Origin: a virus
Taxonomy: Duplodnaviria > Caudoviricetes
Virus record (IMG/VR): IMGVR_UViG_3300037462_000020
Coordinates: 1-53,687 of that record
Direction: 5' to 3' (one strand)
DNA: 53,687 nt
Positions 1,066 to 50,450 of this stretch are shown here, piece after piece; the stretch's first letter is position 1; each line of letters opens with the position of its first letter. The position numbers were made by a program, and so were the translations under genes. The notes below the pieces were generated by a model that searched no databases, was not told the origin of the DNA, and saw only the letters and a list, made by a program, of their open reading frames with translations.

Positions 1066-1216
1066 CGAACGATGATGGTCGGTCTTCCTGCGTGGAGGAC
1101 CGACTGAGACCGAGGAGCCGACTGAGGAAGATGATGAGGAACCGATAGAGCAGATTGATACGACTGAAGATGAAGACGAAGATCGTCCCTCGGTCGGCTC
1201 GTCGGCCCGCTGCGTC

Positions 1217-1276
1217 GCAGCGTCGTATTCATCATCCTCTATGCTGCGGTGCAGCGTCGTATTCATCATCCTCTAT
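1217..1276 (+). repeat. 26-bp direct repeat GCAGCGTCGTATTCATCATCCTCTAT x2, with a degenerate copy near 1291
   Basis: Read directly from the sequence. Confidence 0.85.
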
Positions 1277-1483
1277 CTAAACGGTCCGGTTCGTATTCAT
1301 CTTCATCAATCTATACCGTCCAGTTCATATTCATGTCTTCATCTATATCAATATCTGCATCCGTTCTGGCAACGCATTGTTTTTATCCTCCGGTCCAAAC
1401 TGCCTTACTTTTGCCACAATTGGGGGCCATACAGGGTCCATGGCAAGCGCGGTGCTTGCCTGCTAACACAAAGGGTCTACCAA

Positions 1484-1909
1484 ATGGCTACCACCAAAAC
1501 CGCCCCCGCCCCCGTTGCCGCCGCTAAGGCCGCCCCCGCCCCCGCCCCCGTTGCCGCCCCCGTTGCGGCCCCGCTGGCCCCGCAAGCCCCGCTGTTTACC
1601 TTTGCGCCCTACAGCCCCGCCGCTGGCATGGGCTGGCCCGCCAAGGCCATGCAGGGCGCAACGGTGCGCGCCTATTGCGCCAAGGTGGCGCAGGCGCTGG
1701 CCAAGGCACAGCCCAACGGCTTTACCGTGGCACAGTATGCCGCCGCGCTGGCCGCTGCACAGCCCGGCACCACCTACCGCCTGCCCGCCAATGGCTTTGG
1801 CAATGCCGCCAACGGTGGCCAGCCCAACGCCACGGCCCGCCAGCACGCCACTTGGTTTGCTAACACTGGCCGTTACCTTGTGCCCGCTGGCACGGTGGCC
1901 AAGGGCTAA
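1484..1909 (+). CDS. Ala/Pro-rich basic protein (141 aa) with no Asp or Glu, inside a GA/TC-free island
   Basis: ATG 1484 after a leader hairpin and AAGGG; protein-like C-terminal domain; palindrome after the stop. Confidence 0.7.
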   Translation: MATTKTAPAPVAAAKAAPAPAPVAAPVAAPLAPQAPLFTFAPYSPAAGMGWPAKAMQGATVRAYCAKVAQALAKAQPNGFTVAQYAAALAAAQPGTTYRLPANGFGNAANGGQPNATARQHATWFANTGRYLVPAGTVAKG

Positions 1910-1925
1910 GGCCCGCCACGCCACA

Positions 1926-1951
1926 GGCCAGCCCCCGCGCGGGGGCTGGCC
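1926..1951. repeat. perfect 26-bp palindrome GGCCAGCCCCCGCGCGGGGGCTGGCC (terminator-like or protein-binding site)
   Basis: Self-complementary; 16 bp after the stop of 1484-1909; no U tract. Confidence 0.8.
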
Positions 1952-1982
1952 ACCCTGCCACCCCTAGCACAAGGCCCAAGCC

Positions 1983-2168
1983 ATGCCCCGCCCCTACAGC
2001 CCCCGCCCCTACGCTACACGCAAGGCCAGCCCCCGCGCCAAGGCCAGCCCCGCCCCCGCCGTGCTGGCCCCCGCCGTGCTGGCCGTGCTGGCCGTGGTCG
2101 GCGTCTGGTATATGCTGGCCCCCATGCTGGCCCATATCCAGTCCGCTCTGGCCGTGGCCATGCCATAG
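1983..2168 (+). CDS. small membrane protein (61 aa) with no Asp or Glu
   Basis: Basic N-terminus plus hydrophobic helix AVLAVLAVVGVWYMLA. Confidence 0.5.
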   Translation: MPRPYSPRPYATRKASPRAKASPAPAVLAPAVLAVLAVVGVWYMLAPMLAHIQSALAVAMP

Positions 2169-2327
2169 GCGCTAGGCGCTAGGGGCTGGCCAAGGCTGGC
2201 CCCGAACGGCTGGCCACCCTGCCACCCCGCCCCACGAACGGCACCCGCCGATTGCACCCCGGCCCCGCGTCCGCTCCCCCACGGTTCACCCGCTTCCCTG
2301 AACATTCTTCGAAAGACAACCGAACGC

Positions 2328-17138: not shown

Positions 17139-20100
17139 TGGTCAGAGAAAACGTCGATATCGTCTTTCGTGAATCAGGTATCCGAGTCATCAAGAGAAAT
17201 CTCGATGAACTCGGTGAGTCTGCGAACCGTGCAACTCGCGGCGTGTTTCTTCTTCAGCGGGCACTGTTCGTTCTCGGTGGCTTCGGCATCACGAGGGCGT
17301 TGATCGCCCAAGCGGATGCGCTGACCAACCTTGAGAACAGACTTCGTCTGACCACGAACTCTTCTGTCGAGTTGCAGCAAGTTCAGACTGAACTGTTCGC
17401 TATCGCTCGTCGGTCTCGCGCCGATCTTGAAGGTGTGGCTCAGACCTATACCAGAACCGCGCTGTCTGCGAAAGCATTGGGTCGCTCTCAGGAAGAGGTT
17501 CTGAAGTTCACTGAGTCAGTCACGAAAGCTGCCGTGCTTTCTGGTGCAAGCACTCGAGAGATCAACGCCTCCCTGATCCAGCTTGGTCAGGGTATTGCGT
17601 CGAACCGCCTCGGTGGTGACGAACTTCGTTCTATTCTGGAACAGCTTCCGCTCGTTGCAGACATCATCGCAAAGGAACTCGGGGTGACCCGTGGTCAGCT
17701 TCGTGAACTCGGTTCCGAAGGCAAGATCACTGGCGACATCATTCTCGATGCCTTCAAGAATGCGGCCGACGAAATCGACGCTCTGTTCGCGAATACACAA
17801 CCGACGATTGAACAAGCGTTCACCGTGGCGAGAACGAACTTCCTGGAATTCTTGGATACGTTTGATGATGCGACTGGCGCTTCCGCGAAGCTGGCCAATG
17901 CGATCATCTTCGTTTCGCAGAACATCGATCTTCTCGTTCGGTCCGCCGCTGTTCTCGCTGGGCTTCTCGCTCTCAGCTTCGCTGGCTCTGTGTTGACTTC
18001 TATCTTCACCTACGCCAACGGTCTTCGTGCGACTGCTGTTCAAGCGACTGCTGTTCTCAATCGGCTGGTCGCCATTCGTGGTGCGACCGTTGCGAACACC
18101 GCTGCTCAGGTTGCAGCGAATGCTTCTCGTCAAGCACAACTCACGCAGAACCTTGCACTCATCGCTCAGAAGAAGGCCCTGCTCCAGCAAGAGGTCCTCG
18201 AGGCTCAGTTCGTTGTTCGCAATGGTCAGGCTCGAAATATTCAGACTGGTCAGTTCGTGAGGCTCTCCGCAGCGAAAGCGAACCTCGCTCGACTGACGCA
18301 GCAACTGAGTATCGTTGAAGGCGTGGAGGCCGCACAGGCCGCTAGGCTAACGCAAGCGCGGGCGGCACAGGCGGGGGCCACCAATGCCCTAGCAGGCGCA
18401 CAGGCGCGGCTTGGCGCGGCACAGGCGGCACAGGCGGGGCTTGGGGCAAGGCTGGCCGCACAGTTCCCGCTTCTGGCTGGTGCAATCAACGCCGCGAGAG
18501 TCGCACTCGGCGGTCTGTGGGCTTTGCTGGCCGCGAATCCGATCACCGCTGTCATCAGTCTGATCGCGGCACTGGTCATCGGTATCGTGGCCTTCGGCGA
18601 CAAGATCGAATTCGCAAGCCTCGGCTTCGTTACTCTGAAGGATCTCGCGGTTGCCTCTCTCCAGCTGATCAGCGAGGCTTTGGCTCCCTTCCTTGGGCCT
18701 ATCTGGGACTTCATAAAGAATGCGGTGTCGACTGTCGGCAGCGCGATTGGATCTGCGTTCTCGACCGCAGCGACTGTGATCGCTCAGGTGGTCACGACGA
18801 TCATCGACACCGTGACTTTCCTGCCTCGTGTGGTGATTGCGATTGTCGCTGGTATCAATGCAGCATGGGACTCGATTCCCGCTGCTGCTGGTGCTGCGAT
18901 TGACAAGTTGACCGATATGTTCGCGACTGGCATGGAGTTCATCGCCAATCTCGGCATCAAAGCTGTGAACAAGATCATCGAAGCGTTCAATGGTCTTGCT
19001 GGAACCAAGGTCGGCGAACTCCTTGGGATTGACGCCGCTGAACTCATTCCTGAAGCGACTTTCGATAATCTCCGGACGAACTTCGGCGGAAGCGGAAAAG
19101 CTGCTGGCGATGCTTTCTCGAGTGCTTTCACTTCGAGCCTCGAGTCTACTCGCATTGAGAACATCGTCGGGTCGATCGGAAGTCAGATCGTTCAGCGAGC
19201 CCAAGAGAATGCGGCTACCGCTCGCTCTGATCGTATGTTGCAGGAAATGGCTGCTCAACGCGCTGCTGAAGAAGCGGCTGCGAATAACATCGTTCCTGGA
19301 GACGTTGGTGGCGGCGGTGGCGGTGGAGGAGGCGGCGCTCAACAAGCTGACTTCGCCAGCAAGATCGCAGCTATGCAGCAAGAGATCCAACTTCTGCAAC
19401 TCGGAAACCGTGAGCGTAAGATCGCTCAGGAACTGATCAACATTGAGAAAGAACTGAAGCGCGGCCTGACTGATCAGGAACGCGAACTCGCTGTTGCGAC
19501 CATTCAGCAACTGGAGGCAGCGCGTCAACAGGCTGAGGTTCTCGAGAGCATCGTCGGTCCTCGTGAGAAAGCAATCGAGCAGATGACTGCTCTGAATGCT
19601 CTGTTCCAGCAAGGACGAATCAGTGTTCAGGAATATGCCGCTGCTGTTCTGGAGATGGGCAACGCCCTGAACGCTGCAAGCGGAACTCTGATGGGTGGCT
19701 TCAAGGCCGCTATCGGCGAATCCATCATGAACGTCTCCGAATTCGGGAAGGCGATCGGTGGTCAGTTCGTCGGGTTCGTCAACAGCGCCGCAGATGCTAT
19801 CGTCGAGTTCGCGAGAACTGGTAAGCTGAACATCAAGCAACTCTTCGCTGAACTGTTCGCGAACCTGCTCAAGCTGGCGGCTCAACAACTTCTGCTTCGA
19901 CTGCTCGGTAGCTTCCTCGGTATTCCTGGAGGCGGCATCGGTCTTGGAACTCCGGTCGGGTTCGCGACAGGTGGTTCTATTCTTCCTTCTGGGCCTGGAA
20001 CCACCGACAGCCAACTGGTTCAGTTCAAGAAGCGTCCTGATGAGCGTGTCGATATTCTTACGCCTCAGCAACAGAAAGCCCAAGCGAATGCGATGGCTGG

Positions 20101-28300: not shown

Positions 28301-28511
28301 TCGTCTGTTCATCAACGGTATCATGGAAGCCAAGTCCACGACGCTGACTGGTGCAGTCGGCGGAACTGGTGCTGTTATCGTTGGTGGAAACCAAGCTGGT
28401 TCCAACGACCGTTGGCGCGGGCTTCTGGACGAGATTCGTATCACCAAGGGCGTGGGTCGCTATAACTCCGACAGTGCCTTCACTCCGCAACCATTCTATT
28501 CGAGGTCGTGA
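25365..28511 (+). CDS. central tail/host-specificity protein with C-terminal LamG/ConA-like domain
   Basis: P.A.E..PIP.V.G, PAY.G and MNPAE.IY motifs; FGTGDFTIEGW...G.LDEIRITKGV.RY C-terminus. Confidence 0.88.
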   Translation: MIWFTLALFVVSFLLTALLAPKPQFENARPDQLNPDSFPRATENAPIPLVLGKVRMEAPNTIWYGHFESRPITERIRVSLFKKKTVTVGHTYYLGLNLALAMGPRTALREIYCDDKLLWSGSTNLTTPTSFSIDQPTFFGGHKEGGGFASSCTYYPGALDLTGNPIDSYLVSQLGAGNVPAYLGTAHIVFNQAYIGETAGLRKMAFVLENYSNALGLPNNGKIGDDMNPAEAIYQIMTDTWRGMGLDPAIINVPQLQAIGTTLFNEGNGCSVLVTAESNGTQLIQEIFRQIDAIAYQDPDNGQINFILIRDDYDPDTLPVYDELDVLKVVNFSRSGWDEVVAQVKVTFPQRDRESDAVAISQDMATVAMIGRLRSTTISMPFVYDKTLAANIASRERAQLSVPLFRITLEMNRNAYGLRPGSVFKLDWPEYGFSGLVLRVQEFDLGSLLDGKIIVKCLQDSFSLATTVFAPPPDSAWVAPVTDPMPIVNSVVIEMPKFFAQQIEYPIDDGRVGYIPLAAKPGAASNAFDFAAGEVTGVLDSRDPEYAQYVGSGVLTAVYLNTAGIENGFDSTGTIQVNGANGSIFSGSPLATIRDGDGGLLWINGEWLGFTTAVDLGGGAWNLSGIYRGLFGTRPLTHNIGTRVYQVSTDFLPSGVIELAEGATLFFKFLDRAGRKAQELSQVSQSTIVLNGNVQNRPLRPSFLQLAGQRTGISINDFVAKSLTWRPRNRLVTQAAIEDDAAQTPDIAETYDVDVMVNGVRNSTLSGVSVTSPYVVPFNLTNINQLNCEFRVFARRTAGDSRVSATYAWLPFEMNQTYSPPADPHIASVVLLIGAEGADGSTTIIDESPVGRTLTANGACAIETTGALQQTSSLAVNQANEGTGFLNAGASSDFNFGTGDFTIEGWAKSNFNDAIFFHSIIGNFTGTDTGSWSVFVTDDPTNNINFTVDQASGSFDLSGTTDLGTGIFHFAVSRNGTTVRLFINGIMEAKSTTLTGAVGGTGAVIVGGNQAGSNDRWRGLLDEIRITKGVGRYNSDSAFTPQPFYSRS

Positions 28512-28747
28512 TGGACGCAGAAGAAAGAGAAGCGCGGTTTCACAATCGCAGACGAATCGCCAAGCACAGCTTTCTTCTGATGTCTGGCACTCTCCTTGGG
28601 CTGATGGCCTTCGCTCTTTCGAGTGACGCAGCAGCCCAAAGAGTGTCTCAGATTCAGTGGTTGGTCGGCATCGCCGCGAGCCTGTGGTCAACATTGGTTC
28701 TCGGCTATTATGCCGCAGCAAGCTATGAACAAGGCCGCGCCCAATAG
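28511..28747 (+). CDS. putative holin (two transmembrane helices)
   Basis: RRR followed by two hydrophobic helices; first gene of the lysis block. Confidence 0.6.
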   Translation: MDAEEREARFHNRRRIAKHSFLLMSGTLLGLMAFALSSDAAAQRVSQIQWLVGIAASLWSTLVLGYYAAASYEQGRAQ

Positions 28748-28890
28748 GCGGGCCGCTGGTGGCCCTTGGCCGCTGGCCGCACCCTACCCCCTGCCGGGGG
28801 CCTTTGCCGCGCTGGCGGGGCCGCTGGCGCGGGGCTGGTGGCCAATGGCACAGGCCAGCCGCCACCAACACGTCTACAGGTGTCCAAAGG
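28728..28890 (+). repeat. GA/TC-free conserved element, copy A
   Basis: No GA/TC at 28728-28873; ACCCTACC at 28781; GCCACCAACA-N5-ACAG-N2-GTCCA at 28861. Confidence 0.85.
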
Positions 28891-28900
28891 AGGTAGTCTG

Positions 28901-29242
28901 ATGCTCCCGTGGGTTGTGCTGCGACGGTTTTTGCCGTATATCATCGGTATCATCGTGATCCTCGGCATGGGCTACTGGATCTATACCTCTGGATATCGTT
29001 CTGGCGTTGATGTCACCGTCCGAATGTATGAGCAGAGGATTCAGGAAGAACGTGAGCGACTGCTCGCCGCCAATCAGGCAGCACAAGAAGCCGCAAGGAA
29101 GAAAGAAGCGGAACTTCAACGCCTGCTGAGTGAGAGAAATGACACGATTCGGGTTCTCATGCAAGAAGCGTTCAACGATCCCAATGCTGGCAATGTCGCT
29201 ATCGGTGCTGACAGCGTGCGGCGAATCGATCGGATCCGTTGA
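28901..29242 (+). CDS. inner-membrane spanin (Rz-like)
   Basis: RBS AAGGAGG, N-terminal transmembrane helix, coiled coil, overlapped by a lipoprotein gene. Confidence 0.8.
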   Translation: MLPWVVLRRFLPYIIGIIVILGMGYWIYTSGYRSGVDVTVRMYEQRIQEERERLLAANQAAQEAARKKEAELQRLLSERNDTIRVLMQEAFNDPNAGNVAIGADSVRRIDRIR

Positions 29243-29444
29243 GCCTCCTGTTCTGACGGAAGCACCGTCTGAGTTCACACGGCCTTGCTCTCGGCCCGTG
29301 AAACTGCCCGAACGGCCTCTGACTCAGCTTGAAGTTGAAAGCAACTGGATCGAAGATCGCGGTCGGTTGATTTCTTGTGCAGAACGTCATGGCGCTGTGG
29401 TCGAGTTTTATCAAGATCGTGATAGCAGGATCATGGCGAAATGA
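29139..29444 (+). CDS. outer-membrane spanin lipoprotein (Rz1-like)
   Basis: Lipobox VLTAC, Pro-rich body, overlaps the end of Rz; start is 29139 or 29184. Confidence 0.8.
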   Translation: MTRFGFSCKKRSTIPMLAMSLSVLTACGESIGSVEPPVLTEAPSEFTRPCSRPVKLPERPLTQLEVESNWIEDRGRLISCAERHGAVVEFYQDRDSRIMAK

Positions 29445-29647
29445 ACGAAGAGCAACGCATCAAAGAACTCGAGCAGGAGTTGGTGGATCTCAGAAATGAG
29501 TTCCACAATTATGTTGACCAGAAACGGAAGGAAGAGTCGCAGCGTCTGAGAACGGCCCTCATGGCCGCTGGTGGCATCATTCTCGCCTTGGGCTCCTTCA
29601 TCTGGGTTGAGATCATCTGGCCGGTCATCAAGGCTGGTAGGCCATGA
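29441..29647 (+). CDS. small membrane protein (coiled coil plus C-terminal transmembrane helix)
   Basis: ATGA coupling within the lysis block. Confidence 0.7.
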   Translation: MNEEQRIKELEQELVDLRNEFHNYVDQKRKEESQRLRTALMAAGGIILALGSFIWVEIIWPVIKAGRP

Positions 29648-29802
29648 ATGAACTCATGAAGAGGATACTTCGATACTCGATCTATTCGATCTTCGCGATG
29701 CTTCTGGTTATCGCTCTGTATCTTGCTCCGAAGATCCAATTCTTGAGTCAACTTTACAACTGCGCTTCCAGTATGGAATGCGTTCTCAGAAAAGGAGACT
29801 GA
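29644..29802 (+). CDS. small membrane protein (52 aa)
   Basis: ATGA coupling, one transmembrane helix; below the ORF-track cutoff. Confidence 0.55.
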   Translation: MNELMKRILRYSIYSIFAMLLVIALYLAPKIQFLSQLYNCASSMECVLRKGD

Positions 29803-29803
29803 C

Positions 29804-30319
29804 GTGTCGAAGATCATCGGTGTGACATGGCACTGGACGGCTGGAGCCGACGGTGTCAACGATGTCGAGAAAGATGCCTACAACTTCATCTGCTCTCGGC
29901 AAGGATTCACTGTTCCTGGCGACTTTCCGCCGGAAGCGCAGACTCCGGCCAATATCAAGCGCGGATCGAACTTCTACGCGGCTCACACTCTGAACGCGAA
30001 CAGCTACCGAATCGGTTACGCCGCCGACGCGATGGCTGGTGCCCAAGAGAGGCCGCTCAATTGGGGATCTGCTCCTCTGACAGAGGTGCAGATTCGTGAA
30101 ATGATGAAGTTCACCGCTGGTCTCGTTCGCGTCTACAAGCTGACTGTCAGCCGCCAGACTCTTCTGTCTCATGCCGAAGTCGAGCGGACGCTCGGTATCA
30201 AGCAGAGGGCGAAGTGGGATATCACCTGTCTGCCGGGAGATGTGCGTGTTCGCGACGCAATCGAAGTGGGAGATATTCTGAGGGACATGGTTGTGAAAGC
30301 CATGACAGGGCGGCTCTAG
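29804..30319 (+). CDS. endolysin, N-acetylmuramoyl-L-alanine amidase-like
   Basis: HWTAG, AHT..AN...IG and HAEV...K.DI motifs; RBS AAGGAG, GTG start. Confidence 0.85.
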   Translation: MSKIIGVTWHWTAGADGVNDVEKDAYNFICSRQGFTVPGDFPPEAQTPANIKRGSNFYAAHTLNANSYRIGYAADAMAGAQERPLNWGSAPLTEVQIREMMKFTAGLVRVYKLTVSRQTLLSHAEVERTLGIKQRAKWDITCLPGDVRVRDAIEVGDILRDMVVKAMTGRL

Positions 30320-30564
30320 GTTGAGTCAAGTAGAGTCACCCGCGCCTCGTAACCCATTGTTTTTGCTGTGGTGGCTTTACATGCAGCACTTACACAGGCA
30401 CGGCGCGGTTGCTAGGCCCACAGGGTGCAGCGAAGCAAAAGGTGCACGGCGGGTTTAGTTATGTTTGTCCTGTAAGTTAAGTAAAGAGAAAGAAAAGTAA
30501 GTGTTTACAGGGCTTTAGGTATGGCTTAACTTGGCAGGCATAACTTATCAAAGTAGAGCATGTT

Positions 30565-37836: not shown

Positions 37837-37892
37837 TCTGATGTTGGAGGCAATGGTGCTTCCAAGGCAAATGTGCAGAAATGGAGTCACCC

Positions 37893-38606
37893 ATGACCAA
37901 GACCATCGCCTTCCTGGGCAAAGACTACACGCAGGCCGCTCTCGCCGCCATGACCGACGAGTCGCTGCTCGAACTCCGGAACCTCGTCGCCTCCAACCTC
38001 GGTGTGGCCTCGATCCGCGGCTTCAAGGACCACGATCACGCTGTCGAGCAGACCTGGAAGGCGCTCGAGAAGTTCGAGTCCACCGCTGCCTCGGAAGCTG
38101 GCGAAGCCGGTCCGGCCGAGGAAAAGCCCAAGAAGGCCAAGGCTCCGAAGGAACCCAAGGAACGGAAGCTGGCCAAGTCGTCCGGCGCGAGCCTCGTCAA
38201 GCGTCCGACCCGCAAGATGTTCGCCACCATCAAGAAGACCGGCGAGCATGATGGGACGCAGGGCCGTCAGCATCGCTGGCCGAACTACAAGGACGGCATG
38301 ACCATCGTCGACGTGATCGAGACCGAAGGCACGGAACCCTGGGACGTCTACAACTGGCAGTCGAAGGGCATCATGACCGTGGTCGAGGCCACCGACGAGG
38401 AATACGCCGAGCGTCGCGCCGCGTGGTATGCGAAGCACGGCCTGACCGACCCGGACCTGTCCAAGGAGCAGAAGGCCAAGGAGAAGGCCGACGCCAAGGC
38501 GAAGCGCGAGGCCGACATGGCCGCGAAGAAGGCTGAACGCGAGGCTGCGGCGAAGGCCAAGGCTGATGCGAAGGCCGCTGCTGCTGCGGCTCCGGCCGAG
38601 GCCTGA
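37893..38606 (+). CDS. Lys/Ala-rich hypothetical protein, possibly DNA-binding
   Basis: RBS GGAG; strong codon bias; KA-rich tail. Confidence 0.8.
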   Translation: MTKTIAFLGKDYTQAALAAMTDESLLELRNLVASNLGVASIRGFKDHDHAVEQTWKALEKFESTAASEAGEAGPAEEKPKKAKAPKEPKERKLAKSSGASLVKRPTRKMFATIKKTGEHDGTQGRQHRWPNYKDGMTIVDVIETEGTEPWDVYNWQSKGIMTVVEATDEEYAERRAAWYAKHGLTDPDLSKEQKAKEKADAKAKREADMAAKKAEREAAAKAKADAKAAAAAAPAEA

Positions 38607-38611
38607 CCTTC

Positions 38612-39535
38612 ATGGTCAGCCTCAGGGCATCCGCGTTCTACGATTACCTCAACGAACGTGAAGCGATCCGCCTTCGAAAGGAGGCGGATCGACTTGCTTC
38701 GGAGAACTTCGAAACTCCGCAAGGTCCACCGTGGACTAAGGATCAGATCCTTCGGGAATACAAGTTCACGAACGTGCGCCGCCACCACGATCGCACGAGC
38801 AACGAACTTCGTCAGAGATTCTACGGTCCGCACTTCTTCGATGATCGACGTTCGATCCTCATGAACTGCGCTCTGTTCCGATACTTCGGGACATGGGAAT
38901 TTGCTTGGGCTGTCGGCTGGCAAGATTACGAAAACTTCGACTTCGAGATGATCAAGGACGTTGCCTTCGATCGGCTCGCTGCTGGAGAGCGTGTGTTCAC
39001 CGGAGCCTACGTCATCACGAACCAAGGCATCTCAGCACCGAAGCAGGAAGTGGTCGTCGACTACTTTCTCAAGGACCTGTGGAAAGCCGTTCCTGAACTG
39101 ATGGAAATCGTCCAGAAGACCCACAAGTGGGAGAAGGTCGCAGACCGTATGCGCCAGATCGGCGGATTCGGTGGCACTGGCTTCATGACGAAGGAAGTCC
39201 TTCTGGATACGACCTACACCGGATTCTGGGAGAAGAAGTTCGAGCATCCCAAAGACGGAAGCTTCTCGTTTCCTGTCGACTGGGACAGCTGGACACCGAT
39301 CGGTCCCGGAGCGAGGCGTGGTGCTGCTCGCGTCTTGGGTGATGACTCTGCTACACCGATCAGCGAAAGCAAGTCGATGTGGGTGATCACTGAACTGCTC
39401 GAGTGGCAGAAGATCTACTGGGAACACGAAGACGTTCTCGTTCCCACGGACATTCAATTCGCGCTCTGTGAGTTCGACAAGTATGAGCGCGTCCGTCTCG
39501 GACAGGGCAAGCCTCGGAGTCGGTATCGTGCCTGA
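38612..39535 (+). CDS. 5-hmdU DNA kinase (aGPT-Pplase1/HMUDK helical family)
   Basis: ERE.IR..KE...PPWT.D.IL..YKFTNV.R..DR.S, GPGA.RG and LCEFDKY.R motifs. Confidence 0.85.
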   Translation: MVSLRASAFYDYLNEREAIRLRKEADRLASENFETPQGPPWTKDQILREYKFTNVRRHHDRTSNELRQRFYGPHFFDDRRSILMNCALFRYFGTWEFAWAVGWQDYENFDFEMIKDVAFDRLAAGERVFTGAYVITNQGISAPKQEVVVDYFLKDLWKAVPELMEIVQKTHKWEKVADRMRQIGGFGGTGFMTKEVLLDTTYTGFWEKKFEHPKDGSFSFPVDWDSWTPIGPGARRGAARVLGDDSATPISESKSMWVITELLEWQKIYWEHEDVLVPTDIQFALCEFDKYERVRLGQGKPRSRYRA

Positions 39536-39781: not shown

Positions 39782-41071
39782 ATGAAAATTCTGGTTGCGC
39801 TTCACCAAGTCATGGATCTTGGCGGCATCATCAACCACACAGAGCAACTGATCGGCGGCCTGAAAGATCTCGGCCACACAGTTCATCTGAAGCAGTTCGT
39901 CTATGGGATGAACGCATTCGACCAGAGGCGTGACGGTGACTTCATCGTCGGCCCAAGTGGAATTCCGCACAATCAGGGCAAGGGCTGGAACTTCACGCGA
40001 ATGCAGCGTGTTCCCTACAAGGGCGGCGCGAACCTGACATCTGCCAAGCAGATCCTCTCTGGGTATGACCTCGTGATCTGGACCGTGCCTGTTCCTTCCA
40101 AGAACAAGGAGAACCTCGGCAATCACGAATGGGTGGAACTGTATGACCTTCCGCCCAAGGTGAAGCAGATCGCCTTCGTTCATGACGGCAACATTCGCCA
40201 AGGTGCGCCTCACATTCTGGCGATCCATGACAAGCTGTCTGGTCTGGCCTGTGTCCATGGCTGTGCGCTCAACGGCTCCGACTTCATTCCCGTTCCGCGG
40301 GCGCTGATCCTCAATCCCCAGGAGATGCCGGTTCGTGGCGTCGCAGCTTGGTCTTCCAAGAAGCCGGGATTCGTGAACATGCAGACCTTCAAGGCTTGGA
40401 AACATGCTCATGAACTCATTCAAGCGATCGCCTACATGCCCAACAAGGAAGATGGCGAACTGCGCGAAGTCGCTGGCATGGGCATCGAGTATCAGTATAT
40501 GACCAGCGAGGACAAGTGCAAGGAAGAATATTTCCACGGTCCTGCTGACGACGCGTGGTTCGGCGGTATGCGATTCTGGGAAGCTGCCGAGATGAACGGC
40601 ATGGTCCATCACGGCTACTGGAACACGAATGAAGTCGCCGCGTGGCTGACGCAGGCTCGGGTCTTGGTTGACCCTAGCTGGTCCAGAAAGTATTCGGCGA
40701 TCGGCGGTCACTGGAACCGTGTCGTCGTTGACGCCATGATCCATGGTGTGATCCCCGTCGCCACTGAGATGGGCATGGGTTCGGAGATCTTTGAGGAGGG
40801 TGTTCATTACGTTGGAATTCCCGCCGGAGGTAACGATCCTCAGCAATACGCTGACATCATCCTCGAGACCAGCCACATGAACTATCGTCAAGCGGAGAAT
40901 TTCCGAGACGCTGCTCTCGATGTGCTTCCTCTTTTCGACCGCAAGACCGTTGCTCAGCAGGTCGTCGATCTTGCGAACGGAAACCTCGACACCGTCACCG
41001 GTTCCTTGAAAGGCGAGTTCGCTGACAAGGCCAGTGACATCATGTTCAACCACTTTGGAGTCCTGATGTAA
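39782..41071 (+). CDS. GT-B fold glycosyltransferase, putatively DNA-modifying
   Basis: MKIL...GG...H...L..GL..LGH.V N-terminus; LVDPS and VDAM..G.IPV C-terminal motifs. Confidence 0.75.
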   Translation: MKILVALHQVMDLGGIINHTEQLIGGLKDLGHTVHLKQFVYGMNAFDQRRDGDFIVGPSGIPHNQGKGWNFTRMQRVPYKGGANLTSAKQILSGYDLVIWTVPVPSKNKENLGNHEWVELYDLPPKVKQIAFVHDGNIRQGAPHILAIHDKLSGLACVHGCALNGSDFIPVPRALILNPQEMPVRGVAAWSSKKPGFVNMQTFKAWKHAHELIQAIAYMPNKEDGELREVAGMGIEYQYMTSEDKCKEEYFHGPADDAWFGGMRFWEAAEMNGMVHHGYWNTNEVAAWLTQARVLVDPSWSRKYSAIGGHWNRVVVDAMIHGVIPVATEMGMGSEIFEEGVHYVGIPAGGNDPQQYADIILETSHMNYRQAENFRDAALDVLPLFDRKTVAQQVVDLANGNLDTVTGSLKGEFADKASDIMFNHFGVLM

Positions 41072-42042
41072 TGCAGATTATCTCTTCCCGAAACGTCAAC
41101 GAGGCCCTTCTGCTTGGGCTTCATGCCGTGAATGAATACGGCGTTCTCCGTGACAGCCGCAACGGTCCTGTCAAGGTGTTCCGGACTCCGGTGACAACGA
41201 TCTATGAGCGGCCGACCGAGCGTGTCGTGTTCTACCCAGAGAGGGACGCCAACCCGTTCTTCCACTTTATGGAAGGACTGTGGATGATCGCTGGTCGCAA
41301 TGATGTCGAGTGGATCAGCCGGTTCAACTCGTCCATCGTGAACTACAGCGATGATGGTGTCACCTTCCATGGGGCCTACGGCTATCGCTGGCGGAAACAT
41401 TTCGGCTTCGATCAGCTGGACATCATCGCCCACCTGCTTCGCACGAACCCTGACGATCGCCGTATCGTTCTGCAGATGTGGGATCCTCGCGTCGACCTCG
41501 CCCGTGGCGGCAAGGACTTTCCCTGCAATACGGCAATCAAGTTTCGTGTGCGGGATGGTGAACTTGACATGACCGTCGAGAACCGCAGCAACGACATGAT
41601 CTGGGGAGCCTACGGCGCGAATGCCGTTCATTTCTCAATGCTTCAGGAGTTCATGGCAGCGTGGACTGGTTTCCGTGTCGGCCACTACTGGCAGGTCTCT
41701 ACGAACTTCCACGCCTACGTCTCTACGATGGAGAAACACGCTTCTCTGCTGACGCTGTCTCCCGGCTTCGACGACTACAGCATCGGAGGCGTGGAGCCTT
41801 TCCCGATGGTGAACACGGACATCGAGACCTGGATGCAGGAACTCGATATGTTCATCAATGAAGGCGCTGTCCTCGGCTTCCAGGACAAGTTCTTCAAGAA
41901 GGTGGCGATTCCCATGCTGCTCGCGTGGCAAGCCTACAAGAACAAGGAGTATGGAAAGGCGCAGTCCATTCTCACAGAGACCTGCGTCGCAACCGACTGG
42001 CGCAAGGCCGGTATCGAGTGGATCGAGCGGAGGATCAAGTGA
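41071..42042 (+). CDS. thymidylate synthase homolog, probable dUMP hydroxymethylase
   Basis: YG.RW, D.PCN and RSND..WG...AN motifs (Asn implies a dUMP substrate); clustered with HMUDK. Confidence 0.85.
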   Translation: MQIISSRNVNEALLLGLHAVNEYGVLRDSRNGPVKVFRTPVTTIYERPTERVVFYPERDANPFFHFMEGLWMIAGRNDVEWISRFNSSIVNYSDDGVTFHGAYGYRWRKHFGFDQLDIIAHLLRTNPDDRRIVLQMWDPRVDLARGGKDFPCNTAIKFRVRDGELDMTVENRSNDMIWGAYGANAVHFSMLQEFMAAWTGFRVGHYWQVSTNFHAYVSTMEKHASLLTLSPGFDDYSIGGVEPFPMVNTDIETWMQELDMFINEGAVLGFQDKFFKKVAIPMLLAWQAYKNKEYGKAQSILTETCVATDWRKAGIEWIERRIK

Positions 42043-42593: not shown

Positions 42594-43205
42594 ATGAACG
42601 ACGGAACAGAACCTGACAATCGCTACGTCGCCCAAGAAGGAGGCGACCACTATCAGGCCGAGTATCAGCATTGGGACTGGGTGACTGATATCGGCATGGG
42701 CTATCTTCCTGGGAACGCCACGAAGTATGTCGCTCGCTGGCGCAAGAAGAACGGGCTGGCCGATCTCAAGAAGGCCATGACCTACATCGACAAGATGATC
42801 GCCATTCGCCTTGTTGATCCCATCGCCGTGTTCAACCATCCGATCGGCAATGGATACAAGCTGGCGAAATGCACCGAGAGGTTCGTCGCTGTGAACCAGC
42901 TTGGTGACAAGGAACGGTCCATCTGCGAGGCCTTGTCCTACAAGTGCGATGACGCAATGTTGCGCGTTGCTCGTGATACGCTGGCGAGCCTTGTGCTGGC
43001 CGCTGGCAGGGCACAAGCCCCCGCCGCTACCCTACCACCCGCCGCCCCCGTTGCGGCCCCTGCTGGCGCGGCCTGTGGCGCGGCTGGCGGTGCTGTAGGG
43101 CAGGCCCCCGCCACCAGCACGGCCACAGAGGTCCACAGAAAGGGTCTCGACGGCATGGAGCATCCTTTCGGCTATGATGACTGGCATGAAGGTGGTCCGA
43201 CGTGA
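42594..43205 (+). CDS. DUF3310-like (T7 gp1.7-type nucleotide kinase) protein with Ala/Pro-rich tail
   Basis: GG.HY...GNA.KY..R..KKNG..DL.KA..Y motif. Confidence 0.75.
   Translation: MNDGTEPDNRYVAQEGGDHYQAEYQHWDWVTDIGMGYLPGNATKYVARWRKKNGLADLKKAMTYIDKMIAIRLVDPIAVFNHPIGNGYKLAKCTERFVAVNQLGDKERSICEALSYKCDDAMLRVARDTLASLVLAAGRAQAPAATLPPAAPVAAPAGAACGAAGGAVGQAPATSTATEVHRKGLDGMEHPFGYDDWHEGGPT
42987..43140 (+). repeat. GA/TC-free conserved element, copy B (inside a CDS)
   Basis: No GA/TC at 42987-43128; ACCCTACC at 43029; GCCACCAGCA-N5-ACAG-N2-GTCCA at 43110. Confidence 0.85.
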
Positions 43206-50287: not shown

Positions 50288-50317
50288 ATTGTCATGACGC
50301 CAAACGGAGCCCGCCTG

Positions 50318-50450
50318 ATGCCCTTGCGCCTTGGCCGCACCCTTACCCCTGCCAAGGCCCGCAAGGCCCCCCGCTGGCCGCGCCTGTGGCCGCGCTGGCC
50401 GCACCCTAGCCCATTGGCCCGCCACCAACAGCACCACAGATGTCCAAGGA
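50318..50450 (+). repeat. GA/TC-free conserved element, copy C
   Basis: No GA/TC at 50318-50439; ACCCTTACC at 50339; GCCACCAACA-N5-ACAG-N2-GTCCA at 50421. Confidence 0.85.

What the first reader, a model, noticed from the sequence alone, without database searches (positions are those of the whole stretch)
1484..1909. Entire gene written without GA/TC, giving a 141-aa protein with no Asp or Glu
Seen: there is no GA or TC in the CDS, so no GAN codons and no TCN Ser or TTC Phe. Phe is TTT and the stop is TAA, unlike usage elsewhere in the window. After an Ala/Pro linker the product has a protein-like domain (GWPAKAMQGATVRAYCAKVAQAL...ARQHATWF). Inference: an immediate-early gene that must be transcribed from incoming modified DNA, so the DNA constraint overrides the amino-acid alphabet. 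Its product may enable expression of the modified remainder or counter host defence.
Basis: partly seen in the sequence, partly recalled or inferred. Interest (0 to 1): 0.9.

Follow-up and report, generated by a model that had tools for sequence, protein, structure and literature searches.

The report
Phage operon written without modification sites
A virus of bacteria that chemically decorates its own DNA at the two-letter site TC keeps one small two-gene operon free of that site, which bars the codons for aspartate and glutamate from the encoded protein.

Summary
CDS 1484-1909 has 0 GA and 0 TC inside a 622-nt stretch free of both, in a genome where GA/TC is the commonest dinucleotide pair. 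Given the protein and the phage's codon usage, 30.5±4 GA/TC are expected.

The gene is real. It has 71 homologs, 53 with no Asp/Glu, a third-codon-position excess of substitutions, and a confident winged-helix-like fold. It lies in a conserved terS–orf608–repeats–gene–small membrane peptide–terL arrangement.

The window is an uncultivated relative of the M6/PaMx11 siphophages and carries a 5-hmdU DNA kinase. Six-bp palindromes are purged unless they contain GA/TC. The same test on PaMx11 gives TG+TC, the context published for M6. TC is therefore the inferred hypermodification context, and the cassette and several short islands are modification-free.

Across 20 loci, sense-strand GA (template-strand TC) is 0-3 in 18, while sense TC ranges from 0 to normal. 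This fits a constraint on transcription.

Early timing and the protein's function are not shown. One lineage that still carries the TC signature has relaxed the ban. I found nothing like this in print.

The parts
1484..1909 (+). CDS of P0001. It encodes a 141-aa basic protein (pI 10.4, no Asp/Glu). Residues 1-32 form a disordered Ala/Pro/Thr-rich N-terminus and residues ~33-135 a folded winged-helix-like domain.
   Evidence: 0 GA and 0 TC. 71 homologs. Third-position excess of substitutions between homologs. AF2 pLDDT 85-91 over residues 33-135. VIA-align list dominated by winged-helix/RRE domains, best Z 5.4. No Pfam, PHROG or PDB sequence match.
1476..2098 (.). Stretch with neither GA nor TC on either strand (622 nt, GC 72%).
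   Evidence: Only the GA/TC pair gives such gaps.
1181..2204 (+). Run without GA on the sense strand, which means without TC on the template strand (1023 nt).
   Evidence: The same zone runs from about -200 to +500/+600 relative to the ATG in a profile over 16 loci.
1371..1384 (+). Conserved operator-like motif AACGCATTGTTTTT just upstream of the candidate promoter. A second exact copy of the pattern lies at 30351.
   Evidence: Only two exact matches in the window. It aligns with the conserved AACAAACTGTTT block of 11 loci.
1405..1433 (+). Candidate sigma-70-type promoter: -35 TTACTT, 17-nt spacer, -10 CATACA. It is weak in the window. Relatives have TTGCAN/TTGTAC and TATAGT/CATATT at the same place.
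   Evidence: Alignment A3 of 11 loci. The consensus scanner did not call it. The TSS is not mapped.
1442..1460 (+). 5' leader hairpin GGCAAGC-GCGGT-GCTTGCC, followed by the RBS AAGGG at 1471-1475.
   Evidence: Fold (z -0.6, so not significant on its own). The block ..GCAATGGTGC.. is conserved in relatives.
1926..1951 (+). 11-bp G+C hairpin between the two genes, without a U-tract.
   Evidence: z -2.5.
1983..2168 (+). CDS of a 61-aa small membrane peptide (P0002) with 0 GA and 5 TC. It is the conserved downstream partner of P0001.
   Evidence: Similar hydrophobic peptides follow the homolog in W, L005, L006, L007, L008, L010, L015, L038, L046 and L047.
1217..1324 (+). Three to four 34-nt tandem repeats that are TC-rich and GA-free on the + strand, with GCTGC-N3-GCAGC palindromes beside them. 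Relatives have different repeat arrays at the same place.
28727..28873 (.). Short GA/TC-free island (GC 76%) between the holin-like and spanin-like genes. It ends in the motif CCGCCACCAACACGTCTACAG, followed by an RBS and ATG.
   Evidence: It is syntenic in G001, G002 and G005.
42986..43128 (.). Short GA/TC-free island between the DUF3310 gene and the DNA polymerase gene. It belongs to the same repeat family.
   Evidence: It is syntenic in G001, G002 and G003. PaMx11 has an annotated terminator at the matching junction.
50317..50439 (.). Short GA/TC-free island before the ligase gene. It belongs to the same repeat family.
18326..18465 (.). GA/TC-free island inside the tape-measure ORF, which reads AQA-type repeats without Asp/Glu there.
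   Evidence: G003 has one beside its tape-measure homolog.
30347..30548 (.). GA/TC-poor intergenic region (6 sites where 35 are expected) ahead of the replication module. It starts with the second AACCCATTGTTTTT motif and holds TTTACA-type -35-like hexamers.
38612..39535 (+). 5-hmdU DNA kinase gene, which starts thymidine hypermodification.
   Evidence: PF18723, E 6e-33. 28% identity to PaMx11 gp50. Present in 4 of 5 relatives' records.
41071..42042 (+). Thymidylate-synthase homolog, presumed to be the dUMP hydroxymethylase.
   Evidence: PF00303, E 5e-23. 50% identity to PaMx11 gp51.

Best explanation
The window is an uncultivated siphophage of the M6/PaMx11 kind. Such phages replace T by 5-hmdU and then hypermodify a subset of those bases.

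In this clade the modified context is inferred to be T in 5'-TC-3'. About 39% of all T lie in that context.

Most of the genome is rich in TC/GA and so would be shielded from restriction. A few stretches are written without TC on either strand and would therefore be plain DNA in the virion. The largest such stretch is a complete, conserved cassette of promoter, leader, P0001 gene, hairpin and small membrane-peptide gene. It lies between terS and terL.

The ban on GA in the sense strand removes every GAN codon. That is why P0001 has no Asp or Glu, with Gln, Asn and Ala standing in.

The ban is kept by ongoing selection. It is strictest for the template strand.

The most likely reason is that host RNA polymerase must bind and read this cassette on fully modified DNA. 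I think the incoming genome is the more likely case and late, pre-packaging DNA the less likely one.

P0001 is a small, strongly basic, winged-helix-like protein and probably binds nucleic acid. Its target is unknown.

Status of each step:
- Shown: the dinucleotide ban, its action at the DNA level, its conservation, the strand asymmetry, the modification genes, and the palindrome signature.
- Inferred: that TC is the modified context, that the islands are unmodified, that transcription is the selective agent, the timing, and the protein's function.
For: 1. DNA-level ban. 0 GA/TC are observed against 30.5±4.0 expected given the protein and codon usage. Phe is TTT 5 of 5 times against 15% in reference genes. 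In strict relatives Ser is only AGY, Phe is only TTT, and GTC and CTC are absent.

2. Ongoing selection. L046 and L047 differ by 30 synonymous codons, yet both keep 0 GA/TC.

3. The fold tolerates acids. The distant homolog P0081 has 23 Asp/Glu, some at positions that are Gln or Ala here.

4. The phage looks like a modifier. It has a 5-HMUDK and a thymidylate-synthase homolog, and its replication/modification module is syntenic with that of PaMx11. The kinase is present in 4 of 5 relatives' records.

5. TC is the inferred context. 6-bp palindromes with GA/TC have a median O/E of 1.08 against 0.11 without (p 5e-6). No other pair compares. The same holds in G002, G003, G004 and G005, and more weakly in G001. 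The control PaMx11 gives CA/TG and GA/TC together. That matches the TG/TC motif in restriction-resistant sites of M6 (PMC6449724, passages). GTAC is absent against about 79 expected.

6. The extent matches a transcription unit. Over 16 loci, sense GA is at most 1 per 100 nt from -200 to +500. Sense TC drops from -100. Both recover by +700.

7. Strand asymmetry. Sense GA is 0-3 in 18 of 20 loci, while sense TC runs from 0 to 25; L037 has GA 0 and TC 25. GA outside Asp/Glu codons is at 0-0.52 of expectation, against a median of about 1.2 for reference genes.

8. Conserved promoter-like blocks carry GA-free -35 variants.

9. Biochemical precedent. Bulky C5-pyrimidine groups block bacterial RNAP, probably at initiation (PMC4838386, abstract). 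With T7 RNAP, template-strand and non-template-strand uracil modifications act differently (PMC11550810, abstract).
Against: - L005/L006 orthologs have TC at expectation (15 vs 15.8 and 17 vs 17.2), 7-9 GA and 3 Asp/Glu. Their genome G005 still shows the GA/TC palindrome signature (0.81 vs 0.17, p 7e-5) and no GTAC. The ban is therefore not indispensable in a phage that seems to modify TC.
- The replication and modification genes, presumably early, have normal GA/TC density. RNAP must therefore cope with modified templates elsewhere.
- The published in vitro work points to initiation, not elongation, as the sensitive step. That would explain clean promoters better than a clean whole gene.
- The window's own promoter candidate is a poor consensus match, and the scanner did not call it.
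- The sense-GA-free zone starts about 100 nt upstream of the candidate -35. Reading of the template strand does not explain that part.
- One island lies inside the tape-measure gene, and the short islands sit at module junctions where PaMx11 has a terminator. Not all islands are early genes.
- There are no chemical data, no modification map, and no RNA data of any kind.
Confidence: 0.55

Rival explanations
1. The island is first of all a cis-acting DNA site that must stay unmodified so that a sequence-specific protein can read the duplex. Candidates are a packaging signal, a replication origin or a regulator platform. The genes inside it merely had to adapt.
For: - The island sits between terS and terL, next to species-specific repeat arrays with palindromes.
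- Other islands are not genes. One lies inside the tape-measure ORF. Nine intergenic ones share a conserved end motif and hold syntenic positions.
- Many metagenome contigs end near this region.
Against: - A duplex binding site predicts symmetric avoidance. Yet in 10 of 20 loci TC has returned on the sense strand while GA stays at 0-3.
- The zone spans about 800 nt and matches promoter-to-end-of-operon in 16 loci. That is far larger than known pac or cos or operator sites.
- The repeat arrays themselves are TC-rich in W, L008 and L006.
Confidence: 0.15
2. The protein is acid-free for its own function, as a polycationic, histone-H1-like DNA binder. The nucleotide pattern is a by-product or a separate matter.
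For: - Asp+Glu remain rare even where TC is back to normal: 0-3 per protein in L004, L008, L011, L015 and L037. Pooled over 71 homologs they are 0.39% of residues.
- The protein has net charge +9.6 and a winged-helix-like domain with Ala/Pro/Lys-rich tails in several homologs.
Against: - Synonymous and junction sites obey the ban.
- The promoter, the leader, the intergenic spacer and the neighbouring peptide gene obey it too.
- P0081 has 13% Asp/Glu in the same domain.
- Other islands in the genome show the same ban without this protein.
Confidence: 0.08
3. The constraint acts on the mRNA. A transcript without GA (and, in strict lineages, without UC) escapes a host or phage endoribonuclease or avoids internal Shine-Dalgarno-like GGAG/GAGG sites.
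For: Sense-strand GA is the universal and most persistent avoidance, seen in 18 of 20 loci. It covers both genes of the operon.
Against: - 8 of 20 loci avoid TC as well, symmetrically.
- The GA-free zone begins about 100 nt upstream of the candidate promoter.
- Non-transcript-like islands exist, including one inside the tape-measure gene.
- The genome-wide palindrome signature points to a duplex-DNA property of GA/TC.
- I know of no RNase with bare GA specificity. This is recalled and was not searched.
Confidence: 0.07
4. The logic is the same, that the DNA stays readable when modified, but the timing is the opposite. Hypermodification late in infection damps transcription. The modification-free cassette and islands keep a few functions expressed or regulated at the very end, around packaging and lysis.
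For: - The cassette lies inside the late packaging module.
- One island family sits at the start of the lysis cassette.
- Hypermodification is post-replicative and complete before packaging (PMC8989533, passage).
Against: - The sigma-70-like promoter blocks and the motif shared with the region ahead of the replication module suggest co-regulation with early genes.
- Another island precedes the DNA polymerase gene.
Confidence: 0.12

Closest known systems
Thymidine-hypermodifying siphophages M6 / PaMx11 (5-hmdU DNA kinase pathway)
   Same: - A 5-HMUDK and a thymidylate-synthase homolog.
- HD protein, family A polymerase, primase and helicases in the same order.
- terL is similar at 66-69% DNA identity.
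- Palindromes are tolerated only when they hold the inferred modified context.
   Different: - PaMx11 has no GA/TC-free islands. Its longest gap is 64 nt against about 61 expected.
- PaMx11 has no P0001 homolog.
- Its palindrome signature is TG+TC, not TC alone.
- The window lacks homologs of PaMx11 gp45-49, including gp46/47. Those two make N-alpha-GlyT and 5-NmdU (PMC11472151, abstract start in the listing). In their place it has a GT1-like protein and a 241-aa unknown. The final chemistry is therefore probably different.
Restriction-site (palindrome) avoidance in phage genomes
   Same: Short palindromes without GA/TC are strongly depleted. The median O/E is 0.11, and GTAC, GCATGC and GGGCCC are absent.
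   Different: What is avoided in the islands is not a restriction site. It is the phage's own inferred modification context, avoided locally in a genome that is otherwise enriched for it. Avoidance of a bare dinucleotide over 600-1000 nt is a different scale and logic.
Vertebrate CpG islands (unmethylated promoter islands). Recalled knowledge and an analogy only.
   Same: Short stretches of modification-free DNA at regulatory regions within an otherwise modified genome.
   Different: CpG islands are rich in the target motif and are kept unmethylated by protein binding. Here the motif itself is deleted from the sequence, which also constrains codons. There is no evolutionary relation.
Modification-aware phage factors: T4 Alc and SPO1 TF1. 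Recalled knowledge.
   Same: These are small phage proteins whose action depends on whether DNA carries the phage's base modification. That is a possible model for what a basic winged-helix protein encoded on the unmodified cassette might do.
   Different: There is no sequence or family match (Pfam and PHROG found nothing). Function was not tested. This is only a working analogy.
Winged-helix / linker-histone-like DNA-binding domains
   Same: - A three-helix core plus beta elements.
- The VIA-align list holds JetA, MukF, ORC, MCM-WH, Fox, H1.8 and RRE domains.
- Basic Ala/Pro/Lys-rich tails occur in several homologs.
   Different: The best Z is only 5.4, below the level at which the tool's own note regards a match as more than a common arrangement. 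Foldseek found nothing in the PDB. There is no sequence similarity.

Membership tests
Thymidine-hypermodifying phages (5-HMUDK pathway) | 5-hmdU DNA kinase gene | tested here: met
   PF18723, E 6.4e-33, 114.8 bits against a cut-off of 25.
Thymidine-hypermodifying phages (5-HMUDK pathway) | dUMP hydroxymethylase (a thymidylate-synthase homolog) and the phage's own DNA polymerase | tested here: met
   PF00303, E 5e-23, 50% identical to PaMx11 gp51. Family A polymerase, 51% identical. Hydroxymethylase rather than methylase activity is not testable here.
Thymidine-hypermodifying phages (5-HMUDK pathway) | Downstream decorating enzymes of the M6/PaMx11 type (gp46/gp47-like) | tested here: not met
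   tblastn of the window's module against PaMx11 1-50000 finds no homolog of gp45-49. The window has a GT1-like protein and an unknown protein there.
Thymidine-hypermodifying phages (5-HMUDK pathway) | Hypermodified thymidine present in virion DNA, in a defined sequence context | not testable with these tools
   The evidence is only indirect: the palindrome-tolerance signature for GA/TC.
Winged-helix DNA-binding proteins | Winged-helix fold | tested here: inconclusive
   AF2 pLDDT is 85-91 over residues 33-135. The VIA-align top 50 is mostly WH/RRE domains, but Z is at most 5.4. Foldseek found no PDB match.
Winged-helix DNA-binding proteins | Sequence membership in a described HTH/WH family | tested here: inconclusive
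   No Pfam hit for P0001. HTH_69 matched 2 of 33 members at E 0.3 only. No PDB sequence hit.
Winged-helix DNA-binding proteins | Binds DNA | not testable with these tools
   The only indications are the charge (+9.6, pI 10.4) and the fold resemblance.
Sigma-70 promoter-driven (host RNAP) early gene | -35 and -10 hexamers at the proper spacing, conserved | tested here: inconclusive
   Conserved blocks in 11 loci: TTGCAN/TTGTAC, 17-18 nt, (C/T)ATA(T/C)N. The window's own copy (TTACTT / CATACA) is weak and the scanner did not call it.
Sigma-70 promoter-driven (host RNAP) early gene | Transcript present in the first minutes of infection | not testable with these tools
   The runs laid were probably DNA and consisted of contigs of relatives.
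Real protein-coding gene (as against an open frame by composition) | Purifying selection on the protein, and homologs across divergent genomes | tested here: met
   71 homologs and 19 cluster representatives. Differences at codon positions 1/2/3 are 7/4/35 for L046-L047 and 28/23/69 for L008-L037. Synteny is conserved in 12 loci.

The most novel reading that the evidence does not exclude
These phages use their own thymidine hypermodification as more than armour against restriction. It also works as a genome-wide layer of transcriptional control.

A small set of regulatory islands and one whole operon are written in a modification-proof alphabet. P0001 is a factor that tells modified from unmodified DNA. 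It would bind the plain-DNA islands, which share the motif ~CAACCAACACGTCCACAG, or the host chromosome, and so switch the programme. This would be a phage counterpart of CpG-island logic, in which an epigenetic mark dictates which amino acids a protein may contain.
Probability: 0.15. Interest if true: 0.92.

Novelty: categorically new. Interest (0 to 1): 0.82.

Why it matters
- It would be a clear natural case in which a DNA modification context, not protein function, removes two amino acids from a conserved protein. Strand-specific selection is still visible.

- It offers a way to read a phage's hypermodification context from sequence alone. The question asked is which dinucleotide rescues palindromes from avoidance. 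For M6-type phages the exact motifs were described as not yet known in 2018 (PMC5889632, passage). In 2019 they were inferred only from restriction patterns (PMC6449724).

- It opens a testable question of how host RNA polymerase and DNA-binding proteins cope with hypermodified templates.

- It points to a new, uncharacterised protein family and a set of conserved plain-DNA elements as the place to look.

- Practically, modification-free islands are the parts of such genomes that remain open to restriction enzymes, CRISPR and sequencing chemistry.

Tried and rejected
- ORF artefact. Several frames are open here because TGA/TCA cannot occur. I rejected this for the 1484-1909 frame because of its homologs, its codon-position pattern and its fold.

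- Tandem-repeat origin of the composition. Only the first ~100 nt (the Ala/Pro part) is repetitive (family D1). The domain part is complex.

- Structured RNA in the short islands. Folding z-scores run from -1.5 to +0.2. The three-copy alignment gives no convincing covariation. Rfam finds nothing in the window.

- Small ORFs in the short islands. Copies differ by 4- and 2-nt indels and lack a conserved start. I treat them as non-coding, but this is not proven.

- Shared k-mers between islands, such as GCTGGCCGC (6 of 7 copies lie in islands). This may only reflect the restricted alphabet, so I drew no conclusion.

- Expression data. Runs listed as RNA were rated probably DNA, and the material laid was contigs of relatives. 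Nothing can be said about transcription. Parts without cover mean nothing.

- Homodimer prediction for residues 33-141. No answer was returned, score 0.00 against a mark of 0.42. This is evidence neither way.

- Protein atlas. No usable hit.

- Loss of modification as the cause of the relaxed lineage. Rejected, because G005 keeps the palindrome signature.

- Physical genome ends near the gene. Contig ends cluster around terS and the gene, but G001/G002 carry terminal repeats with arbitrary starts. This is undecided.

- DNA for the acidic distant homologs P0081 and P0084. None was found in viral contigs.

- Cultured phages. tblastn of P0001 against 50,697 GenBank phage records found nothing.

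- Literature. Searches found no description of modification-free islands or of a dinucleotide-free gene in modified phages. This covers only the held library, and supplements were not seen.

Full report
**Observation**

The ORF at 1484-1909 (+) is 426 nt long and encodes 141 aa. It contains no GA and no TC, and so no Asp or Glu.
- All 5 Phe are TTT. In 24 long reference genes TTC makes up 405 of 474 Phe codons.
- The one Ser is AGC and the stop is TAA. By comparison, 17 of 28 long ORFs end in TGA.

- Neither dinucleotide occurs from 1476 to 2098 (622 nt).
- The zone 1390-2269 has 11 sites where 151 are expected.
- The + strand has no GA from 1181 to 2204.

The window as a whole is the opposite. 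GA (4549) and TC (4706) are its most frequent dinucleotides, at 17.2±4.0 per 100 nt, and GATC occurs 515 times. Of the ten dinucleotide/complement pairs, only GA/TC leaves gaps far above the expected maximum of about 53 nt. Those gaps are 622, 146, 142, 139, 122 and 85 nt.

With the protein held fixed and codons drawn from the phage's own usage, 30.5±4.0 GA/TC are expected. The minimum in 20,000 draws was 16, against 0 observed.

**Is it a gene?**

Open frames mean little here, because TGA and TCA cannot occur. Four other lines of evidence show that it is a gene.
- The protein has 71 homologs in the 5.8-billion-protein set and 19 cluster representatives in the exhaustive search.
- Pairs of homologs differ mainly at third codon positions. 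L046/L047 differ at 7/4/35 sites, with 30 synonymous and 8 non-synonymous codon changes. L008/L037 differ at 28/23/69.
- AlphaFold with 33 sequences folds residues 33-135 at pLDDT 85-91. The Ala/Pro/Thr-rich N-terminus is disordered.
- The order terS, orf608, repeats, this gene, (membrane peptide), terL, portal recurs in 12 loci.

A short hydrophobic peptide gene follows the homolog in at least 10 loci.

The family has no Pfam, PHROG or PDB-sequence match and no homolog in 50,697 GenBank phage records. Structure comparison gives only weak matches, with best Z 5.4. They are dominated by winged-helix and RRE domains. Foldseek finds nothing in the PDB and one unnamed viral homolog. The protein is strongly basic, with pI 10.4 and net charge +9.6.

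**What the window is**

It is an IMG/VR viral contig, about 85% complete. Its terminase and portal are distantly like those of the Pseudomonas phages PaMx11, Ab18 and relatives.

Its replication module is syntenic with that of PaMx11. It includes a 5-hmdU DNA kinase (PF18723, E 6e-33) and a thymidylate-synthase homolog. These are the genes that start thymidine hypermodification in M6, ViI and PaMx11 (PMC8989533, passages).

Homologs of PaMx11 gp45-49 are absent. A GT1-like protein and an unknown protein stand in their place. The final chemical group may therefore differ.

**Which context is modified?**

I tested which dinucleotide, when present in a 6-bp palindrome, spares that palindrome from avoidance.

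| Genome | Median O/E with GA/TC | Median O/E without | p |
|---|---|---|---|
| Window | 1.08 (16 palindromes) | 0.11 (48 palindromes) | 5e-6 |
| G003 | 1.22 | 0.30 | not restated |
| G002 | 1.09 | 0.27 | not restated |
| G004 | 0.99 | 0.48 | not restated |
| G005 | 0.81 | 0.17 | not restated |
| G001 | 0.79 | 0.40 | 0.02 |

In the window no other dinucleotide pair comes close.

PaMx11 serves as the control. There, both CA/TG (1.11 vs 0.00) and GA/TC (0.97 vs 0.00) rescue palindromes. This agrees with the TG/TC motif found in restriction-resistant sites of its relative M6 (PMC6449724, passages).

GTAC is absent from the window, G003, G001 and G005, although about 79 copies are expected.

I therefore infer that T in 5'-TC-3' is the protected, modified context in this clade. 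In the window 38.7% of all T lie in that context. That is in the range reported for hypermodified T in M6 and ViI, "up to half" (abstract of PMC8989533).

Stretches without TC on either strand would then be plain DNA. These stretches are themselves poor in palindromes. The main island has 11 against 26.3±5.1 expected.

**Comparative test of the ban**

DNA was available for 28 loci, of which 20 were used. The eight dropped are listed under Tried and rejected.
- Eight loci are strict, with GA+TC at most 1: W, L007, L009, L010, L018, L039, L046 and L047. Their free stretches span 306-851 nt.
- Ten loci keep sense-strand GA at 0-3 but have 3-25 TC. L037 has GA 0 and TC 25.
- Two loci, L005 and L006, have 7-9 GA and 15-17 TC.

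Given each protein and the local codon usage, TC is at expectation in L005, L006 and L011. GA is still depleted there. GA outside Asp/Glu codons is at 0-0.52 of expectation, against a median of about 1.2 for other genes of the same genomes.

Strict loci lie on both sides of the midpoint root of a poorly resolved tree.

Averaged over 16 loci, sense GA falls to at most 1 per 100 nt from -200 to +500 relative to the ATG. Sense TC falls only from -100. Both recover by +700.

The universal feature is therefore a template strand free of TC from upstream of the promoter to the end of the two-gene operon. Avoidance on the other strand is variable.

**Asp/Glu**

53 of 71 homologs have none. Pooled, Asp+Glu are 0.39% of residues, against 12.4% in the window's other genes.

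The fold does not forbid acids. The distant homolog P0081 has 23 Asp/Glu in 177 residues, some at positions that are Gln or Ala here.

Together with the evidence from synonymous sites and flanks, this makes the DNA ban the primary cause. Persistent selection against sense-strand GA explains why acids stay rare even where TC has returned.

**Signals**

Eleven loci share the following elements, in this order:
- a palindromic block (AACAAACTGTTT);
- a -35-like hexamer without GA (TTGCAN, TTGTAC);
- a 17-18-nt spacer;
- a -10-like (C/T)ATA(T/C)N;
- a leader hairpin;
- AAGG, then the ATG.

The window's own copy is weak, and the consensus scanner did not call it.

The motif AAC[GC]CATTGTTTTT occurs exactly twice. 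One copy is at 1371. The other is at 30351, at the head of the GA/TC-poor region before the replication module.

**Other islands**

Three islands of about 150 nt (28727, 42986, 50317) are copies of one element. With six more in relatives, they end in ~CAACCAACACGTCCACAG followed by an RBS and ATG.

They occupy conserved junctions:
- DUF3310|polymerase in W, G001, G002 and G003;
- tail protein|lysis genes in W, G001, G002 and G005.

PaMx11 has an annotated terminator at the first junction.

Another island lies inside the tape-measure ORF.

PaMx11 itself has no such islands.

**Interpretation and its limits**

The best reading is that the cassette is kept free of modification sites so that it can be bound and read on fully modified DNA.

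In favour of this reading:
- The strand asymmetry and the unit-sized extent favour transcription over a duplex binding site.
- The symmetric strict cases, the non-coding flanks and the genome-wide palindrome signature argue against a purely RNA-level cause.
- Published in vitro work shows that bulky C5 groups can block bacterial RNAP, probably at initiation. It also shows that template and non-template uracil modifications act differently on T7 RNAP (abstracts of PMC4838386 and PMC11550810).

Against an absolute requirement:
- L005/L006 have relaxed the ban although G005 keeps the TC signature.
- The TC-rich replication genes must also be transcribed.
- The GA-free zone starts upstream of the candidate promoter.

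Timing, whether early or late, and the function of the protein remain open. No RNA evidence could be obtained. The dimer prediction gave no answer.

Literature searches found no description of such islands. This covers only the held library, and supplements were not seen.

Noticed in passing
whole window; also G003, G001, G005: GTAC is completely absent, 0 observed against about 79 expected. GCATGC, GGGCCC, TGCGCA, GGCGCC and ATGCAT are also absent from the window. G002 has 120 GTAC. This points to host restriction systems that differ between lineages.
   Followed up: partly
1217-1324 (and 1203-1264): Three to four 34-nt tandem repeats (..TCGTATTCATCATCCTCTAT..) lie here with GCTGC-N3-GCAGC palindromes. 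They are TC-rich and GA-free on the + strand. Relatives carry unrelated repeat arrays with their own palindromes at the same place, for example GTAACAAATTGTTAC in L018 and GCGTTA-N4-TAACGC in L007. They may be packaging or operator sites.
   Followed up: partly
388-442 and 1122-1176: The acidic C-terminal end of terS is repeated at 76% identity about 730 nt downstream. It looks like a remnant of a duplication between terS and the cassette.
   Followed up: no
28859-28887, 43108-43136, 50419-50447; G001, G002, G003, G005 islands: Nine intergenic GA/TC-free islands in five genomes end in a shared motif (~CAACCAACACGTCCACAG). It lies 10-25 nt before an RBS and start codon. It is a candidate phage-specific promoter or regulator site.
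   Followed up: partly
18326-18465: A 139-nt GA/TC-free island lies inside the 1041-aa tape-measure ORF. That stretch of the protein (AQA/ARL repeats) therefore also lacks Asp/Glu. G003 has a 170-nt one beside its tape-measure homolog.
   Followed up: partly
42594-43205: The DUF3310 ORF reads through the 42986 island. Only residues 14-126 match PaMx11 gp53. The last ~75 codons may be read-through of a stop-poor island rather than real protein.
   Followed up: partly
37881-38606 and 39782-41071: The kinase is flanked by a 241-aa protein with no family match and by a GT1-like glycosyltransferase, in place of PaMx11's gp45-49. This suggests a thymidine hypermodification not yet described, possibly one that contains sugar.
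   Followed up: no
28508-30319: Read by eye, this is a lysis cassette. It holds a two-TM holin-like ORF (28508-28747) and a spanin-like ORF with an N-terminal TM and coiled coil (28902-29242). It also holds an overlapping ORF with a lipobox-like LTAC (29130-29444) and a 171-aa endolysin-like ORF (29804-30319). None of this was checked against profiles.
   Followed up: no
30347-30548: This intergenic region ahead of the HNH/replication module is AT-richer (GC 47%) but GA/TC-poor. It uses TTTACA rather than TTGACA as its -35-like hexamers, as if promoters here also avoid the modified context.
   Followed up: partly
protein P0081 (no DNA held): This distant homolog of the family has 13% Asp/Glu and a Lys/Glu-rich N-terminus. 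Its genome would be the natural outgroup for testing the link to TC modification.
   Followed up: partly
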